64,000 nt of DNA from the human T2T-CHM13v2.0 reference genome, Homo sapiens (GCF_009914755.1 NC_060930.1); one strand, 5' to 3'. Positions 178 to 7,078 are shown, counted from the first letter of the stretch. Program-made: numbers and translations. Notes: a model not told the origin generated them from the sequence alone.

Positions 178-460
178 GGCCAGCTGCGGTGGCTCATGCC
201 TGTAACCCCAGCACTTTAGAAGGCTGAGGCAGGCGGATTGAGGTCAGGAGTTCGAGACCAGCCTCACCAACATGGTGAAACCCTATCTCTACTAAAAATA
301 CAAAAGTTAGGCCTGGTGCCTCCTACCTGTAATCCCAGCTGCTAGCAGAGGCTGAGGCAGGAGAATCACTTGAACCCAGCAAGCAGAGGTTGCAGTGAGT
401 TGAGATCATACGCAGTCCAACTTGGGAACCAAGACCAAAAACTCCAAAAAAAAAAAAAAA
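178..460 (+). mobile_element. AluS element, unusually G-depleted toward its 3' end
   Basis: ggccagctgcggtggctcatgcctgtaa start, central A-rich linker, poly(A) at about 446-461 followed by (CA)n. Confidence 0.9.
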
Positions 461-557
461 ACACAACCACACACACACACAGAAAAGACACACTCCAGGG
501 ACAGGGGCTCAGACTTTCCAAAGTCTTCGCAAACTTATGCTTTTCCAGGGCTGCTGG

Positions 558-2009
558 TGTGTCCAGAATTGGTCAGTGCCCGGTTTCACCGACTTCAAAA
601 ATGAAACCATGGGCCCTTAACAGTGAGTATTAAATTTCTTATAGGCGGCATGTCTGGAGCTTGCTCCTTCTAATGTTCCAATGTGTTCAGTTTTTTTCCT
701 TTTGGTGGATTATGTAGTCTTCCTTGCTCAGAAGTGAGGCTACTAACTTTCACAGTGAATGTTATAGCTCGTAAAACTGGCACGTCTGGAGTTATGTCTC
801 AGTGAATTTGTGGGCTCACTGGCTTCAGAAGTGAAGCCACAGACCTTCATAATGAGTGCTACAATTCACAAAAGCAGCACAGACCTAAAGACCAAGCAGA
901 AACAAGACGAGGGAGGAGGAGGAAGAGAAAAAGCTTCCACACAGCAAAAGTAGGTTACAGCTTATTACTACTGGAAGCTCAAGGCAGCCTGCTTTTATTC
1001 TCTCATCTGGCCCCACCCACATCCTGCTGATTGGTCCATTTTACAGAGAGCTGACTGGTCTGTTTTGACAGGGTGCTGATTGGTGCGTTTACAATCCCTG
1101 AGCTAGACACAAAAATTCTCCATGTCCCCGCTAGATTACCTAGATACAGAGTGTTGACTGATGTATTTACAAATCGTGAGCTAGTCACAGAGTGCCGATT
1201 GGTGTATTCACAATCCCTTAGCTAGACATAAAGATTCTCCAAGTCCCCAACAGATTAACTAGATACAGAGTGCCGATTGGTGCATTCACAAACCCTGAGC
1301 TAGACACAGGGTGCTGATTGGTGTGTTTACAAACCTTGAGCTAGAGACAGTGCTGATTGGTGTATTTACAATCCCTTAGCTAGACATAAAGGTACTCCAT
1401 AGTCCCACACCAGACTCAGGACCCAAGCTGGCTTCACCCAGTGGATCCTGCACTAGGGCCGCAAGCGGAGCTGCCTGCTGGTCCCGCGCTGTGCGCCTGC
1501 ACTTCTGCACTCCTCAGCCCTTGGGCAGTCGTATGGGATCTGGGCGCTCTGGAGCACGGAGTGGCGCTCGTCGGGGAGGCTTGGGCTGTTGGGGAGGCTT
1601 AGGCTTGGCGGGCTGCAAGTCCGGAGCCCTGCCCCGCGGGGAGGCAGCTAAGGCCCGGCGAGAAATACGAGTACAGCAGCTCCTGGTCTAGGTGCTAAGC
1701 CCCTCACTGCCCCGGACTTGCGAGCCGGCGGCTGCTCCGAGTGCGGAGCCCGCTGAGCCCACAACCCGCCCGGAACTCGCGCTGGCCCGCAAGCGCTGCA
1801 CGCAGCCCCGGTTCCCGCCCGGCTTGTCTCTCCACACCTCCCCGCAAGTTGAGGGAGCCGGCTCCGGCCTTGGCTAGCCCAGTAAGGGGCTCCCACAGTG
1901 CAGTGGTGGGCTGAAGTGCTTCTCAAGCGCTGCCAGAGTGGGCGCCCAGGCCCAGGAGGCGCTGAGAGCGAGCCAGGGCTGAGGGCTGTCAGCACGCTGT
2001 CACCTCTCA
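558..2009 (-). mobile_element. Solo ERV9 LTR (LTR12C-like)
   Basis: On the minus strand it begins TGAGAGGTGACAGCGTGCTG (2009) and ends AATTCTGGACACA (558). 4-bp target-site duplication CTGG at 554-557 and 2010-2013; CpG-rich 5' U3; tandem U3 repeats with CCAAT boxes. Confidence 0.95.
960..1400 (-). promoter_or_regulatory. LTR12 core promoter/enhancer, firing leftward
   Basis: Six CCAAT (NF-Y) boxes (GATTGG on +) between 1029 and 1360; TATA-like AATAAAA on minus at 993-999; start site predicted near 965. Confidence 0.75.
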
Positions 2010-2598
2010 CTGGTACAGCCCCCTTATCTCCAGGCTTTTTCCCTTCTCACCCGTTTCGCGTGCCTTTTAAGATGCGGGATCTTTCTTCTACCTGACTTCA
2101 GACTTGGTGACCTCTTTGTTAATCCAAGTCCTTGATCTCAGGAAACCCCCAAGATCTCCATTCACTCTACTCATCCCAGGCTTAGGTACCTGACCCCTCA
2201 GTGCCAGCTGTGTGACTGTTTCCTGAATCCTACTTCCAGTCTGTGGTCTCATGTTGCTTCTACCGTGCTTTAAAGGACTGCCAATGTGTGAAGCTTTTTG
2301 TATTTGATGTGTTAATGAGGTTGTGAGTTTTATTCTTTGCTCAGCCAAATGAATTTGTAAAGAGAATTATGTATTAGAGAATTTGTAAAGAGGATTATAC
2401 ACATATATATATGAAATCCACATATATATAATCCATGTATATATACATATGATCCATAAATAATCTGTATATATATGTTTAATGAGTAACAACTATCTAT
2501 TGATGAAAATGGTGGAAGTTATGTAAGATGACTTGTAAGGAGCATCCCTTCCCTGGGAGAAATCAGCACTGAATGTCTCCTGGGAGGTAGCACATTTT

Positions 2599-2640
2599 GA
2601 TGCTGCTGCTGCTGATGATGATGATGGAGAAGAGGAAGAT
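2599..2640. repeat. (GCT)n/(GAT)n trinucleotide microsatellite
   Basis: gatgctgctgctgctgatgatgatgatgg. Confidence 0.8.
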
Positions 2641-2727
2641 AAGCATCTCCATTGCTTTTTATGTGCTAGGTACATAGTCTCATTTGCTCTCACGTTAATC
2701 CAGGAAACTAGGCACTGTTTTGGTCCC

Positions 2728-4541: not shown

Positions 4542-4840
4542 CTTTTTTTTTTTTTTTGGAGACAGAGTGTAGCTCTGTTACCTAGGCTGGAGTGCAGTGG
4601 CGCAATCTCGGCTCACTGCAACCTCTGCCTCCTGGGTTCAAGAGATTCTCCTGCCTCAGCCTCCCGAGTAGCTGGGACCAGAGGCACGTGCCACCACACC
4701 CGGCCAATTTTTGTATTTTTAGTAGAGACGGGGTTTCACCATGTTGGCCACGCTAGTTTCAAACTCCTGACCTCAGGTGAACCACCCGCCTCAGCCTCTC
4801 AAAGTGTTGGGATTACAGGCGTGAGCCACCACACCCAGCC
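4542..4840 (-). mobile_element. AluS
   Basis: Poly(T) head, full antisense dimer. Confidence 0.9.
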
Positions 4841-5066
4841 AGCATCTCCCTTCAATGGATAAGGAAATCAGGGCTTCCAGAAGTTAAGTGAGGTTTGCGG
4901 ACACTTTATTGTTGGGCACAAACTCAACAAGTCTGACTCCAGTGTAACTGGTAACTCCCATGCCAACATGGAATTCAGAGCCTCTAGTGGTGGGATTTCT
5001 TGCAGGCCCTGTCATCCCTGGGCTGAGGTTCTTGTGGAAGGTCAAGGTGGCTGGGTGGAACTTGGC

Positions 5067-5197
5067 AGTGTGGTCAATCAACAGCGCATGGGCATTGAAA
5101 TTAGGATACTTAGATTCAAAACAGATCTCTCACTTTCTGATTTAGGGCAAGTTACTTGACTTCACCTGCCTCCATTTTCTCAATTGTAACGTGGAAC
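5067..5197 (+). mobile_element. MIR, interrupted by the LTR12 insertion
   Basis: ttagggcaagttacttgacttcacctgcctccattttctcaattgtaa core; appears to resume as gttgtgaaaact after 6487. Confidence 0.6.
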
Positions 5198-6487
5198 CGA
5201 GAAATGACAATGTGCCAGCAGCCCTCCCTCGCTCTCGGCGCCTACTCTGGCCGTGCTTGAGGAGCCCTTCAGCCTACCGCTGCGCTGTGGGAACCGCTCT
5301 CTGGGGTTGGCCCAGGCTGGAGCCAGCTCCTTTGCTCGCAGGGAGTGTGGAGGGAGAGCCGCGGGCGGGAGCCGGGGCTGCGCGCGGCGCTCGTGGCCGG
5401 CGCGCGGTCTCGGCGGTCGCCGAACTTCAGTCAACTGACGTCTGCTGGGCTTGACTAGGGAAAAAGCTCCCTCTGGGCTGCCAGAGTGCCCGAATTGGGT
5501 GCTGTAAAGTGCCCCAGCGCCTGCCGGTAAGAGGTGAAACCGGCTGGGTTTCTGGGAGGGGTGCGAACTTGGAGAACTTTTGTGTCTAGCTAAAGGATTG
5601 TAAACTCACCAATCAGCATTCTCTGTGTCTAGCTAAAGGTTTGTAAATGTACCAATCAACACTCTGTGTCTCGCTAATCTTGTGAGGACTTGGAGAACTT
5701 TTGTGTCTAGCTAAAGGATTGTAAACGCACCAGTGAGCACTCTGTGTCTAGCTAAAGGTTTGTAAACACACCAATCAGCACCCTGTCAAAAATGGACCAA
5801 TCAGCATTCTGTAAAATGGACCAATCAGCACTCTGTAAAATGGACCAATCAGTTCTCTGTAAAATGGACCAATCAGCAGGATGTGGGTGGGGTCAGATAA
5901 GGGAATAAAAGCAGGCTGCCTGAATCAATAAGGATAACTGGTTTACGTCTGTTCTTTGTGTTGCTATAGACTTGTTGTTTGGGTTTGGGTTATCTTTTTG
6001 ATCTGCAGGACTAATAGTAAAAGTCTATAGCTTCAGTTATAGACTAAGATTGCTACTCTGCCAGAAATAGTGAATAAAGAATCAACTGGGTGGGATGAAT
6101 CACGGTAGGTGTTCTATGCTTAAGAGCTGGGAGGTTTACCACCTCTGTCTGTAGCTTTGGTCGTCAAAGCAGCGGGATTCTGAAAAAAAGCTGTAGCACT
6201 CTGGGAAAGTAGGTAGCTTCAGTTTTTAAGTTAGTGAGATTAGGAAGGTGTGTAATGCTCCCAGTCCACTCAATGTGAAGATCTGTAACGTCATTCCTGA
6301 AGTCAGTAAGAGCACGAACCCACTATAGAAAAGAAACAAAAGAGGCAAACCCACCAGAGAGAAGAAACTTTGAGCACATCTCAACAGAAGAAATAAACTG
6401 GGGTCACATGTTTAACAATTGTAATTCTGTGAGGGTCCACAGCTTCATGCTTGAAGTCAGACTGAGAACCCACTAATTCCACACGCA
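5198..6487 (+). mobile_element. Solo ERV9 LTR (LTR12B/LTR12-like)
   Basis: Begins cgagaaatgacaatgtgccagcagccctc; CpG-rich U3; internal gagaggtgaaaccggctggg LTR12 core at about 5527; tandem tgtgtctagctaaagg and CCAAT repeats; ends cactaattccacacgca. No clean TSD. Confidence 0.92.
5575..5940 (+). promoter_or_regulatory. LTR12 core promoter firing toward GCNT2
   Basis: Seven CCAAT boxes 5609-5873, GT-box/GATA (gggtggggtcagataa), TATA-like AATAAAA 5904-5910; start site predicted at about 5930. Confidence 0.75.
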
Positions 6488-6506
6488 GTTGTGAAAACTA
6501 TAGAGG

Positions 6507-7078
6507 ATTTTTTTTTTCTTTTGACAGTTTCACTTGTGCTGCCCAGGCTGGAGTGCAGTGGCACTATCTTGGCACACTGTGGCTTATGTCTCGGGTTCAA
6601 GCGATTCTGCTGTCTCAGCCTCCCAAGTAGGGATTACAGGTATGTGCTACTAGGCCCAGCCAAATTATTTACTGATCATTTTTGGTTTTGTTGCCCAGGC
6701 TGGAGTGCAGTGGTGTCATCTGTGTACTGCAATCTTTGCCTCCCGGGGTCAAGTGGCTTGCCTCTCTCGGCCTCCTGAGTAGCTGGGACTGTAGGCACCC
6801 ACTACCACACTTGGCTAATTTTTTTGTATTTTTAGTAGAGATGGGATTTCTCAACATTGGCCAGGATGTTGTTGATTTCCTGACCTTGTGATCTGCCCAC
6901 CTCAGTCTCCCAGAGTGCTGGGATTACAGGAGTGACACACTCTGCCTGGCCTATTTTTCTATTTTTAATAAAGATTTTCACCATGTTGGCCAGGCTGGTC
7001 TCGATCTGACCTCAGGTGATCTGCCTGCCTTGGCCTCCGAAAGTGCTGGGGTTACAGGTATGAGCCATTGTGCCTGGT
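6507..7078 (-). mobile_element. Nested antisense Alus, C-depleted on the + strand
   Basis: Alu right arm, an inserted full Alu (about 6679-6951), then the left arm of the host. Confidence 0.85.

What the first reader, a model, noticed from the sequence alone, without database searches (positions are those of the whole stretch)
178..7000. Strand-specific cytosine erosion begins at the start site of both LTR12 promoters and flips strand with their orientation
Seen: in both LTRs the U3 is well preserved (tandem CCAAT units nearly identical to each other, CpGs kept). Immediately past the TATA-like AATAAAA the sequence degrades sharply. In the + LTR (from about 5920) the R/U5 tandem units are barely recognisable near the start site and recover with distance. 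Against the recalled consensus the changes are mostly C>T and C>G at non-CpG sites on +, e.g. actcctgaagtcagcgagaccacg -> agtttttaagttagtgagattagg at about 6221. The pattern continues into the downstream Alus (tctcctgcctc -> tctgctgtctc). In the - LTR (990 down to 558) and the Alu beyond it (178-460) the changes are G>A and G>C on +, i.e. C loss on that LTR's sense strand (gggaggcgg -> gcaagcag; tccagcctgggcaacaagagc -> tccaacttgggaaccaagacc). Established: LTR12 is a young primate family whose copies are usually close to consensus and which is a strong NF-Y promoter in male germ cells; a mild C>T excess on the non-template strand just downstream of start sites is known genome-wide. Inference: these are extreme germline transcription-linked hypermutation domains, consistent with deamination of the exposed non-template strand (C>T) and abasic-site bypass (C>G), resembling somatic hypermutation but fixed in evolution. 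The mirrored pair acts as its own control.
Basis: partly seen in the sequence, partly recalled or inferred. Interest (0 to 1): 0.88.

Follow-up and report, generated by a model that had tools for sequence, protein, structure and literature searches.

The report
Hypermutated stretch downstream of two LTR12 promoters
Two neighbouring, oppositely oriented retroviral LTR12 promoters on human chromosome 6 have normal upstream halves, but from the start site onward each has changed several times faster than other copies, which fits damage linked to long-term germline transcription.

Summary
The core observation is real, but its strand specificity is overstated. The two solo LTR12 LTRs lie at 558-2010 (- strand) and about 5200-6486 (+ strand). 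Their U3 regions are as similar to other genomic LTR12 copies as those copies are to each other. The change comes right after the AATAAAA box. From there, both are the two most diverged of 101 copies compared: identity to other copies is 0.54 and 0.67 against a median of 0.82, and 9-mer sharing is 0.11 and 0.30 against 0.80. No other place in the genome matches these R/U5 parts above 78%. The changes in the two LTRs are independent of each other and mostly at non-CpG sites. In the + LTR they fade with distance. They continue into flanking Alus up to about 1 kb from the start site, so they arose after integration. Both strands are hit. Sense-strand C and A are about 1.4-2 times more mutable than G and T. 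This is significant in the + LTR (p=0.0005) and only a trend in the - LTR (p=0.11). No AID or APOBEC motif preference was found. The best reading is a start-site-anchored, transcription-associated germline hypermutation footprint. That is an extreme member of a known kind, and I found no description of it for LTR12 in four literature searches. Germline transcription itself was not testable here.

The parts
558..2010 (-). Solo LTR12 LTR ('- LTR'), full length (1453 nt), flanked by a possible CCAG target-site duplication.
   Evidence: BLAST of the sense strand against 29 other LTR12 loci aligns from sense position about 20 to about 1473. The ends and the CCAG flanks were read from the sequence.
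1000..2010 (-). U3 of the - LTR. It comprises a CpG-rich 5' part (1441-2010: 43 CpG, o/e 0.63) and tandem CCAAT units.
   Evidence: Pairwise difference to references is 0.176 against 0.097-0.152. CpG retention. Tandem units (family D1).
983..999 (-). TATA-like AATAAAA box with a conserved 17-nt anchor. The predicted start site is about 30 nt downstream, near 963-969.
   Evidence: Sequence read. Position of the start site relative to AATAAAA comes from PMC11853044 (passages).
558..982 (-). Eroded R/U5 of the - LTR.
   Evidence: The best genomic match elsewhere is 73-77%. Identity to 99 copies is 0.668 against a median of 0.821. 9-mer sharing is 0.30 against 0.80. Private changes are 0.147 against a median of 0.031 and a maximum of 0.128.
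178..462 (+). Alu lying 0.5-0.8 kb downstream of the - LTR start site. Its third nearest the LTR is more diverged, and G is lost more than C on the + strand.
   Evidence: Non-CpG divergence is 0.147 (371-462) against 0.057 and 0.078. G>A 7 and G>C 6 against C>T 3 and C>G 1.
5200..6486 (+). Solo LTR12 LTR ('+ LTR'). The 5' end is approximate.
5200..5901 (+). U3 of the + LTR. It comprises a CpG-rich part (5200-5559: 30 CpG, o/e 0.76) and CCAAT tandem units.
   Evidence: Pairwise difference is 0.136, within the reference range. 88-91% identity to 39 other loci. CpG retention. Tandem units D3 and D7.
5904..5920 (+). TATA-like AATAAAA box with the conserved anchor. The predicted start site is near 5934-5940.
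   Evidence: Sequence read. The 19-nt anchor has 374 exact matches in the genome. PMC11853044.
5921..6486 (+). Eroded R/U5 of the + LTR.
   Evidence: No genomic match for 5921-6266, and at most 78% beyond that. Sense C fraction is 0.136 in the first 330 nt against a median of 0.291, lower than all 100 sampled copies. Identity is 0.539. 9-mer sharing is 0.11. Private changes are 0.240. Gradient.
6505..6962 (-). Two antisense Alu pieces (6505-6672 and 6668-6962) lying 0.6-1.0 kb downstream of the + LTR start site. They are more diverged than same-type Alus and have lost C on the + strand.
   Evidence: Non-CpG divergence is 0.143 against 0.034-0.063 in 5 same-type Alus of the window. Alu-sense G>A to C>T is 20:2 against 233:162 in the other 61 Alus, p=0.0027. 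GC skew is +0.03 and +0.01 against -0.08 to -0.13 in four other antisense Alus.
6950..7085 (-). Alu left-arm piece that is not eroded. It marks the outer limit of the effect, or a later insertion.
   Evidence: Non-CpG divergence is 0.047.

Best explanation
After integration, each of the two solo LTR12 LTRs gained point substitutions several times faster than normal across a zone that begins at its own transcription start site. The zone runs about 0.6 kb (- LTR) to about 1 kb (+ LTR) in the direction of transcription and crosses the LTR end into host Alus. The most likely cause is transcription-associated mutagenesis in the germline or early embryo, driven by long-lasting activity of these promoters. 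Opening of the DNA at and just after the start site (paused polymerase, R-loops) would expose the non-template strand. Cytosine deamination and adenine damage then go unrepaired there, which gives the sense-strand excess of C and A changes. Repeated breakage and error-prone repair would raise all substitution types on both strands.

Shown here: the position, size, independence, spectrum and flank extension of the excess.
Inferred: that transcription is the cause, the cell type, and the chemistry.
For: - Step at the TATA box: private changes go from 0.012 to 0.240 (+ LTR) and from 0.044 to 0.147 (- LTR). The medians of 99 copies are 0.024 and 0.031.
- Both LTRs are the two lowest of 101 copies (100 sampled minus L121, plus these two) by alignment and by alignment-free 9-mer sharing. 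By sense C fraction the + LTR is lowest of all, and the - LTR ranks about sixth of the 102 listed, with L121 still in the list.
- No better-matching subfamily was found anywhere in the genome (only 40 of 669 and 40 of 1687 first-look candidates were scored).
- Independence: both LTRs differ from the references at 34 columns, against 28.5 expected by chance.
- Gradient with distance in the + LTR.
- Extension into host Alus that are 2.3-4 times more diverged than same-type Alus, and a distance gradient inside the left Alu.
- Sense-strand bias: C+A 127 of 318 against G+T 57 of 229, p=0.00024.
- Family-wide tendency in the same direction: 11 of 99 other copies are sense-biased at p<0.05 and none is antisense-biased. 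Downstream identity correlates with C>T-G>A, C>G-G>C and A>G-T>C (rho -0.47, -0.44, -0.58) but not with upstream identity (rho -0.05).
- U3 CpG retention is above the references, as expected for a promoter unmethylated in the germline.
- A start-site hotspot with excess C>T on the coding strand, a rise in nearly all mutation types, and links to TATA promoters, polymerase stalling, R-loops and divergent transcription is in print (PMC12658150, passages).
Against: - No expression, CAGE, R-loop or methylation data could be consulted, and RefSeq annotates no transcript starting in either LTR (hub annotation).
- The strand bias of the - LTR is not significant alone (p=0.11). C>T versus G>A alone is not significant in either LTR.
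- The published average hotspot is only +14% downstream and also rises upstream. Here the excess is several-fold and the upstream side is not raised.
- Across 99 copies, upstream CpG count does not correlate with erosion. The link with the number of proximal CCAAT boxes is weak (rho -0.24, p=0.018 for identity; p=0.07 for private changes).
- Both informative flanking Alus are oriented so that the predicted bias coincides with the ordinary Alu-sense G>A excess. This was only partly controlled.
- At 40-50% difference, part of the + LTR alignment is uncertain.
Confidence: 0.6

Rival explanations
1. Enzymatic deamination. AID or an APOBEC3 enzyme, recruited to single-stranded DNA at these transcribed start sites, made most of the changes. 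This would be a germline counterpart of somatic hypermutation, or of the hypermutability reported for snRNA and histone genes.
For: - C>G is 11 against G>C 2 in the + LTR.
- A changes exceed T changes on the sense strand (44 of 150 against 15 of 109, p=0.004), as recalled for polymerase-eta repair in somatic hypermutation.
- Sense G>A is somewhat enriched in the GG context (9 of 16 against 19 of 70, p=0.038, uncorrected).
- Two preprints attribute snRNA and histone gene hypermutability to APOBEC3/AID (abstracts only).
Against: - No WRC over SYC preference (32 of 77 against 17 of 48, p=0.57).
- No TpC preference (sense 13 of 29 against RC 36 of 77).
- No WA preference (24 of 95 against 35 of 164).
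- C>G is not raised in the - LTR (3 against 3).
- Near-saturation at about 50% of C sites lowers the power of these tests.
Confidence: 0.15
2. A local process without transcription, tied to the architecture. The two LTRs form a large imperfect inverted repeat (arms about 1.3-1.45 kb, spacer about 3.2 kb). Breakage and error-prone repair, or replication effects around an origin between them, mutated the outer arms.
For: - The two most eroded of 101 copies lie side by side in inverted orientation, which calls for a cause at the level of the locus.
- All substitution types and both strands are raised.
- The bias flips sign between the two sides, as a replication origin between them would also predict.
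Against: - The step coincides with the TATA box to within about 10 nt in both LTRs. Neither hairpin-related breakage nor replication asymmetry predicts that.
- The arm parts nearest the spacer (U3) and the Alu in the spacer (4560-4852, divergence 0.051-0.053) are normal.
- Single LTR12 copies elsewhere show the same polarity. Whether they have an inverted partner was not checked.
Confidence: 0.1
3. Damage before integration. The R/U5 parts were hypermutated during reverse transcription (editing of strong-stop DNA), or came from a diverged or recombinant source element.
For: - The U3/R border is also the end of the minus-strand strong-stop DNA, so an R-U5-limited pattern could in principle arise during reverse transcription (established retroviral replication scheme, recalled).
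- The slight GG-context enrichment of G>A.
Against: - The dominant excess is C and A on the sense strand, the opposite of minus-strand editing.
- The changes continue into host Alus.
- The two LTRs carry independent changes, yet sit next to each other while none of 99 other copies is as eroded.
- No related source copy exists in the genome.
Confidence: 0.07
4. Ordinary decay or an artefact. The LTRs are older copies in which the promoter half is conserved by selection, plus CpG decay and misalignment of the tandem units in R/U5.
For: - R/U5 is CpG-rich and carries tandem units of variable number.
- CpGs are depleted there (7 and 6 against about 6-18 in the copies listed).
Against: - Only about 12 of some 270 compared columns are CpG columns, and the non-CpG rates are 3-5 times the background.
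- Alignment-free measures give the same ranking.
- The private-change rates in U3 (0.012 and 0.044) are typical, so the age is typical.
- A family about 30 million years old cannot reach 25-45% neutral divergence.
Confidence: 0.05

Closest known systems
[quoted passage not shown]
   Same: - Anchored at the start site, larger downstream, and confined to roughly the first kb.
- Nearly all mutation types are raised, with a coding-strand excess of C>T.
- Associated with TATA promoters, divergent transcription, polymerase stalling and R-loops.
   Different: - The published average excess is 14% downstream and 7% upstream. Here the excess is several-fold, is seen as fixed substitutions, and is absent upstream.
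- That paper does not mention LTRs or retrotransposons (0 occurrences of either term).
Transcription-associated mutagenesis at tRNA genes (PMC6130373; search listing and abstract only)
   Same: Strong local rise in mutation at short, heavily transcribed units with sharp boundaries.
   Different: Those genes are transcribed by polymerase III and have internal promoters. I did not read the spectrum or the magnitude in that paper.
Hypermutable snRNA and replication-dependent histone genes (bioRxiv 10.64898/2026.10.12.758683 and 10.64898/2026.06.11.731563; abstracts only)
   Same: Polymerase II units with unusually high germline mutability, strand asymmetry and R-loops.
   Different: Those are attributed to APOBEC3/AID with motif signatures. 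No TpC or WRC preference was found here.
Somatic hypermutation of immunoglobulin genes (recalled, no call)
   Same: - The zone starts near the start site and decays over 1-2 kb.
- C>T and C>G occur.
- A changes more often than T on the non-template strand (seen here).
   Different: - It is somatic, specific to B cells and dependent on AID, with WRC and WA hotspots. These were tested here and not met.
- As recalled, C and G are hit about equally there.
APOBEC3 editing of retroelements during reverse transcription (recalled; APOBEC3 pressure on ERV9 is mentioned in PMC11853044)
   Same: Clustered transitions in a retroviral LTR.
   Different: That process gives G>A on the plus strand and stops at the element's ends. 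Here sense C and A dominate, and host Alus are affected.

Membership tests
LTR12 (ERV9 LTR) | U3 with tandem units of about 41 nt carrying CCAAT, and a CpG-rich 5' extension. | tested here: met
   Tandem families D1, D3 and D7. 88-91% identity of the U3 tandem part to 39 other loci. The GC-rich part aligns to 21 references. The description of the family is from PMC11853044.
LTR12 (ERV9 LTR) | AATAAAA box about 30 nt before the start site, followed by R/U5 with tandem B units. | tested here: met
   The anchor is exact in the + LTR. The - LTR differs only at the first base of the 19-nt pattern (AGAAT for GGAAT), and its 17-nt AATAAAAGCAGGCTGCC is intact. R/U5 is still alignable to references along its length, though heavily diverged.
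Start-site-anchored transcription-associated germline hypermutation | Excess substitutions begin at the start site and decay within about 1 kb in the direction of transcription. | tested here: met
   The decay is clear for the + LTR. For the - LTR it is seen mainly in the flanking Alu.
Start-site-anchored transcription-associated germline hypermutation | Non-template strand bias (C>T and A>G in excess on the sense strand). | tested here: inconclusive
   + LTR: C+A 0.50 against G+T 0.28, p=0.0005. - LTR: 0.31 against 0.22, p=0.11. C>T against G>A alone: p=0.11 and 0.36.
Start-site-anchored transcription-associated germline hypermutation | The promoter is transcribed in germline or early-embryo cells. 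| not testable with these tools
   No expression or nascent-RNA data are available. The only indirect hint is the high CpG retention in U3.
Start-site-anchored transcription-associated germline hypermutation | Excess of rare variants or de novo mutations at the site today. | not testable with these tools
   No population variant data are at hand.
AID/APOBEC-type hypermutation | Preference for WRC (AID) or TpC (APOBEC3A/B) contexts. | tested here: not met
   WRC 32 of 77 against SYC 17 of 48 (p=0.57). Sense TpC 13 of 29 against RpC 36 of 77. Power is limited by saturation.
APOBEC3 editing at reverse transcription | G>A excess on the plus strand, confined to the element. | tested here: not met
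   Sense C changes are 83 of 168 against G changes 42 of 120. Flanking Alus are affected.
CpG decay | Most changes are transitions at CpG. | tested here: not met
   There are 6 C and 6 G CpG columns in each LTR, against 257-290 non-CpG sites. Non-CpG C>T is 0.44 and 0.30 against a background of 0.080.

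The most novel reading that the evidence does not exclude
Retroviral LTR promoters record their own germline activity as a start-site-anchored hypermutation footprint. In LTR12 this would be a family-wide, graded phenomenon: 11 of 99 sampled copies are sense-biased and none is antisense-biased. The chr6 pair would be its extreme, marking an unannotated, very strongly and persistently transcribed bidirectional germline locus. 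Mutation there has run at several times the normal rate over about 1 kb for millions of years, without a deaminase motif. The roughly 5,000 datable LTR12 insertions would then serve as natural reporters for measuring transcription-associated mutagenesis in the human lineage.
Probability: 0.35. Interest if true: 0.75.

Novelty: new member of a known kind. Interest (0 to 1): 0.6.

Why it matters
Germline hotspots at transcription start sites are known mainly as small average effects (+14%), or at special gene classes such as tRNA, snRNA and histone genes. Here a dated insertion shows the effect accumulated over millions of years at single-locus resolution. Roughly a quarter to nearly half of sites are changed downstream, against a few percent upstream of the same promoter. 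The ancestral state can be inferred from thousands of sister copies, which gives the start point, the extent and the spectrum directly. If the family-wide trend holds, LTR promoters offer a way to measure how much, how far and on which strand transcription mutates the human germline. They would also flag unannotated germline-active promoters from sequence alone. A practical point follows for repeat annotation and dating: the divergence of an LTR's R/U5 can grossly overstate its age.

Tried and rejected
- Variant-subfamily explanation. Whole-genome searches with each R/U5 found nothing above 78% (only 40 candidates were scored in each).
- Five seemingly eroded copies in the first sample (L005, L008, L024, L026, L028) turned out to be shorter R/U5 variants with flanking DNA included. 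L121 in the second sample has an Alu inserted right after the anchor and was dropped.
- The 'private changes only' filter removed the C>T asymmetry (10 of 69 against 7 of 48 in the + LTR). This showed that the asymmetry is modest and led me to tone down the claim.
- Deaminase motifs WRC, SYC, TpC, CpC and WA: no clear preference.
- Upstream CpG count against erosion across 99 copies: no correlation.
- Proximal CCAAT count against erosion: weak (rho -0.24, p=0.018) and weaker with private changes (p=0.07).
- The Alu at 1-177 belongs to an older type that the window's Alu consensus fits poorly, so I drew nothing from it.
- A LINC02522 literature search gave nothing useful.

Full report
**What is there**

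The window is human chr6 (T2T). It holds two solo LTR12 (ERV9) LTRs head to head. One lies on the - strand at 558-2010 and is full length. Its flanks carry CCAG on both sides, which may be a target-site duplication. The other lies on the + strand at about 5200-6486. Their U3 ends face each other across a 3.2-kb spacer, so each would transcribe outward.

Each LTR has three recognisable parts:
- a CpG-rich 5' U3;
- tandem CCAAT units (families D1, D3, D7);
- the AATAAAA box within a conserved anchor, at 983-999 on the - strand and 5904-5920 on the + strand.

A review of the family places the start site about 30 nt after that box. [quoted passage not shown]

**Checking the step**

A genome search with 5560-6490 matched 39 other loci at 87-91% over the U3 tandem part. 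The R/U5 matched at only 69-84%, in short pieces. Positions 5921-6266 found nothing. Searches with each R/U5 alone gave at best 78% over about 130 nt (+ LTR) and 73-77% (- LTR). Only 40 of 669 and 40 of 1687 first-look candidates were scored. So no low-divergence subfamily explains the sequence.

In U3, the mean pairwise difference to 28 other copies is 0.136 (+ LTR) and 0.176 (- LTR). Among those copies it is 0.097-0.152.

In R/U5, identity to 20 clean reference copies is 0.63 and 0.68, against about 0.82 among the references. For that set I dropped eight of the 28:
- L005, L008, L024, L026 and L028, because they have shorter R/U5 and their segments ran into flanking DNA;
- L006, L013 and L025, the next lowest in identity.

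**An unbiased sample**

The 19-nt anchor has 374 exact matches in the genome and none for the reversed control. I fetched the first 100 by position. I dropped L121, which has an Alu inserted right after the anchor. The table compares the two window LTRs with the remaining 99.

| Measure | + LTR | - LTR | Other 99 copies |
|---|---|---|---|
| Identity, first 350 nt from the anchor | 0.539 | 0.668 | median 0.821, 5th percentile 0.764* |
| Identity, 240 nt upstream | 0.911 | 0.884 | median 0.912* |
| 9-mer sharing, downstream | 0.11 | 0.30 | median 0.80, minimum 0.38 |
| 9-mer sharing, upstream | 0.89 | 0.78 | median 0.89 |
| Sense C fraction, first 330 nt | 0.136 | 0.230 | median 0.291* |
| Private changes, downstream | 56 of 233 (0.240) | 38 of 258 (0.147) | median 0.031, maximum 0.128 |
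| Private changes, upstream | 0.012 | 0.044 | median 0.024 |

*These rows were computed over all 100 sampled copies, before L121 was dropped.

With L121 set aside, the two window LTRs are the two lowest of 101 in downstream identity. By sense C fraction, the + LTR is lower than all 100 sampled copies and the - LTR ranks about sixth of the 102 listed. Private changes are sites where at least 80% of copies agree and the variant is rare.

In the + LTR, the fraction of references that differ is 0.34-0.51 over the first 280 nt and 0.19-0.25 over the last 140 nt. In the - LTR it is 0.32-0.46 over the first 120 nt and mostly 0.24-0.31 afterwards. Two reference copies run through the same profile as controls mostly range 0.08-0.25, with one window at 0.31.

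**Spectrum and strand**

Most changes are at non-CpG sites. Only 6 C and 6 G CpG columns are compared per LTR. The per-site rates below cover the first 350 nt and are polarised by what at least 60% of the 99 copies carry.

| Change (non-CpG) | + LTR | - LTR | Background |
|---|---|---|---|
| C>T | 34 of 77 | 27 of 91 | 0.080 |
| G>A | 17 of 58 | 14 of 62 | 0.077 |
| A>G | 16 of 73 | 8 of 77 | 0.047 |
| T>C | 3 of 49 | 6 of 60 | 0.025 |
| C>G | 11 of 77 | 3 of 91 | 0.024 |
| G>C | 2 of 58 | 3 of 62 | 0.012 |

Both strands are therefore hypermutated. The sense-strand bias is as follows:
- + LTR: all C changes 49 of 77 against G 23 of 58 (p=0.009); A 26 of 73 against T 7 of 49 (p=0.012); C+A against G+T p=0.0005.
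- - LTR: the same direction but not significant (p=0.49, 0.19 and 0.11).
- Both together: C+A 127 of 318 against G+T 57 of 229, p=0.00024.

Averaged pairwise tallies over the whole R/U5 tell the same story. Sense CpH C>T is 0.33 and 0.29 against 0.08. Antisense is 0.23 and 0.19 against 0.10.

It shows C changed at 0.44 of sites and G changed at 0.35, so the example is the cleanest patch, not the rule. No preference for WRC, TpC, CpC or WA contexts was found. The one hint is a weak GG-context enrichment of sense G>A (9 of 16 against 19 of 70, p=0.038, uncorrected).

**Independent and post-integration**

There are 354 columns where at least 70% of the references agree. The two LTRs both differ at 34 of them, against 28.5 expected under independence. 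They are only 56.6% identical to each other in R/U5. So this is not a duplicated, pre-eroded copy.

The effect leaves the LTRs:
- The Alu at 6689-6935 shares two diagnostic states with five other Alus of the window. Those five have non-CpG divergence of 0.034-0.063, and it has 0.143.
- In the two Alu pieces at 6505-6962, Alu-sense G>A to C>T (which reads as C>T to G>A on the + strand) is 20:2. In the other 61 Alus it is 233:162 (p=0.0027).
- Their GC skew is +0.03 and +0.01, against -0.08 to -0.13 in four other antisense Alus.
- On the left, the Alu at 178-462 has non-CpG divergence of 0.147 in the third nearest the LTR, against 0.057 and 0.078 further out. It has G>A 7 and G>C 6 against C>T 3 and C>G 1.
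- The Alu pieces at 6950-7085 (0.047) and 7435-7745 (0.078) are ordinary, so the zone ends about 1 kb from the + LTR start site.

One caveat applies. Both informative Alus are oriented so that the predicted bias coincides with the usual Alu-sense G>A excess. The comparison with the other Alus controls this only in part.

**Other evidence on promoter state**

The CpG-rich U3 keeps more CpGs than the references. CpG o/e is 0.63 (- LTR) and 0.76 (+ LTR), against a median of 0.44 and a range of 0.33-0.69 in 21 references. The review states that LTR12 is normally heavily methylated, even in primordial germ cells. These two may be exceptions. Across the 99 copies, however, a crude upstream CpG count does not track erosion.

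**Family context**

Among the 99 other copies, 11 are sense-biased at p<0.05 and none is antisense-biased. At p<0.01 the count is 3 against 0. L043 has C>T 22 against G>A 1. Lower downstream identity goes with a larger sense bias (rho -0.47, -0.44 and -0.58) and is unrelated to upstream identity (rho -0.05).

Pooled over all copies, A>G exceeds T>C 1.9-fold and C>G exceeds G>C 2.0-fold downstream. C>T and G>A are equal. With private changes only, the ratios are 1.38 and 1.44. Subfamily structure may inflate the first set of ratios. The window's pair thus looks like the extreme of a graded family trend.

**Interpretation**

Four features fit transcription-associated mutagenesis at an active promoter:
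- a step at the start site in two independent, oppositely oriented elements;
- decay within about 1 kb;
- spread into host DNA;
- a bias toward non-template C and A.

The kind is known. A 2025 study describes a germline hotspot at start sites that is larger downstream. It involves nearly all mutation types and a coding-strand excess of C>T. It is linked to TATA promoters, divergent transcription, polymerase stalling and R-loops. Its average excess is only 14% (PMC12658150, passages). Several-fold effects are reported for tRNA, snRNA and histone genes (abstracts or listings only).

Four searches found no description of such a footprint at LTR12 or other LTR promoters:
- LTR12 with hypermutation;
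- LTR12C with testis, NF-Y and promoter;
- LTR12 with R-loop;
- long terminal repeat with transcription-associated mutagenesis and germline.

The library does not hold most subscription journals, and I read no supplements.

**What remains open**
- Whether these LTRs are transcribed in germ cells.
- Why two neighbours are the extremes. Possible causes are a locus-level effect, divergent promoter pairing, or the inverted-repeat architecture.
- Whether a deaminase contributes.
- Whether the process is still running.

Noticed in passing
L043 (G000:C1:86363535, - strand); also L100, L071, L126, L035, L070: Other LTR12 copies show a cleaner sense-strand bias just after the TATA box than the window's pair. 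L043 has non-CpG C>T 22 against G>A 1 and A>G 12 against T>C 1. Of 99 copies, 11 are sense-biased at p<0.05 and none is antisense-biased.
   Followed up: partly
240 nt upstream of the anchor in L031-L130: Pooled private changes in U3 show the opposite asymmetry to R/U5. The C>T to G>A ratio is 0.63 (p=0.008) and the A>G to T>C ratio is 0.64 (p=0.014). Possible causes are upstream antisense transcription, or host genes running antisense to the LTRs.
   Followed up: no
window 558-982 and 5921-6060: Both LTRs lack the AATAAA that 73 of 99 other copies carry 40-140 nt after the anchor. Loss of the LTR's own polyadenylation signal would let transcripts run on into the flank, but it may simply be part of the erosion.
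   Followed up: partly
window 6967-6972 (+ strand): An AATAAA lies at the junction between the eroded Alu (6668-6962) and the uneroded Alu piece (6950-7085), about 1 kb from the + LTR start site. It could be a transcript end, or a coincidence.
   Followed up: no
window 558-982 and 5921-6270: Sense G>A changes are somewhat enriched where the next base is G (9 of 16 against 19 of 70, p=0.038, uncorrected). This is the context recalled for APOBEC3G.
   Followed up: partly
150 nt upstream of the anchor in L031-L130; window 5752-5901: Copies with more proximal CCAAT boxes tend to have more diverged R/U5 (rho -0.24, p=0.018; with private changes p=0.07). The + LTR has the maximum of 5 boxes and the - LTR has only 2.
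   Followed up: partly
L121 (G000:C3:180031157, - strand): This LTR12 copy has an Alu inserted immediately after the TATA anchor.
   Followed up: no
window 2395-2480 and 2605-2640: A TA-rich simple repeat and a short GCT/GAT triplet run lie in the spacer just outside the - LTR.
   Followed up: no
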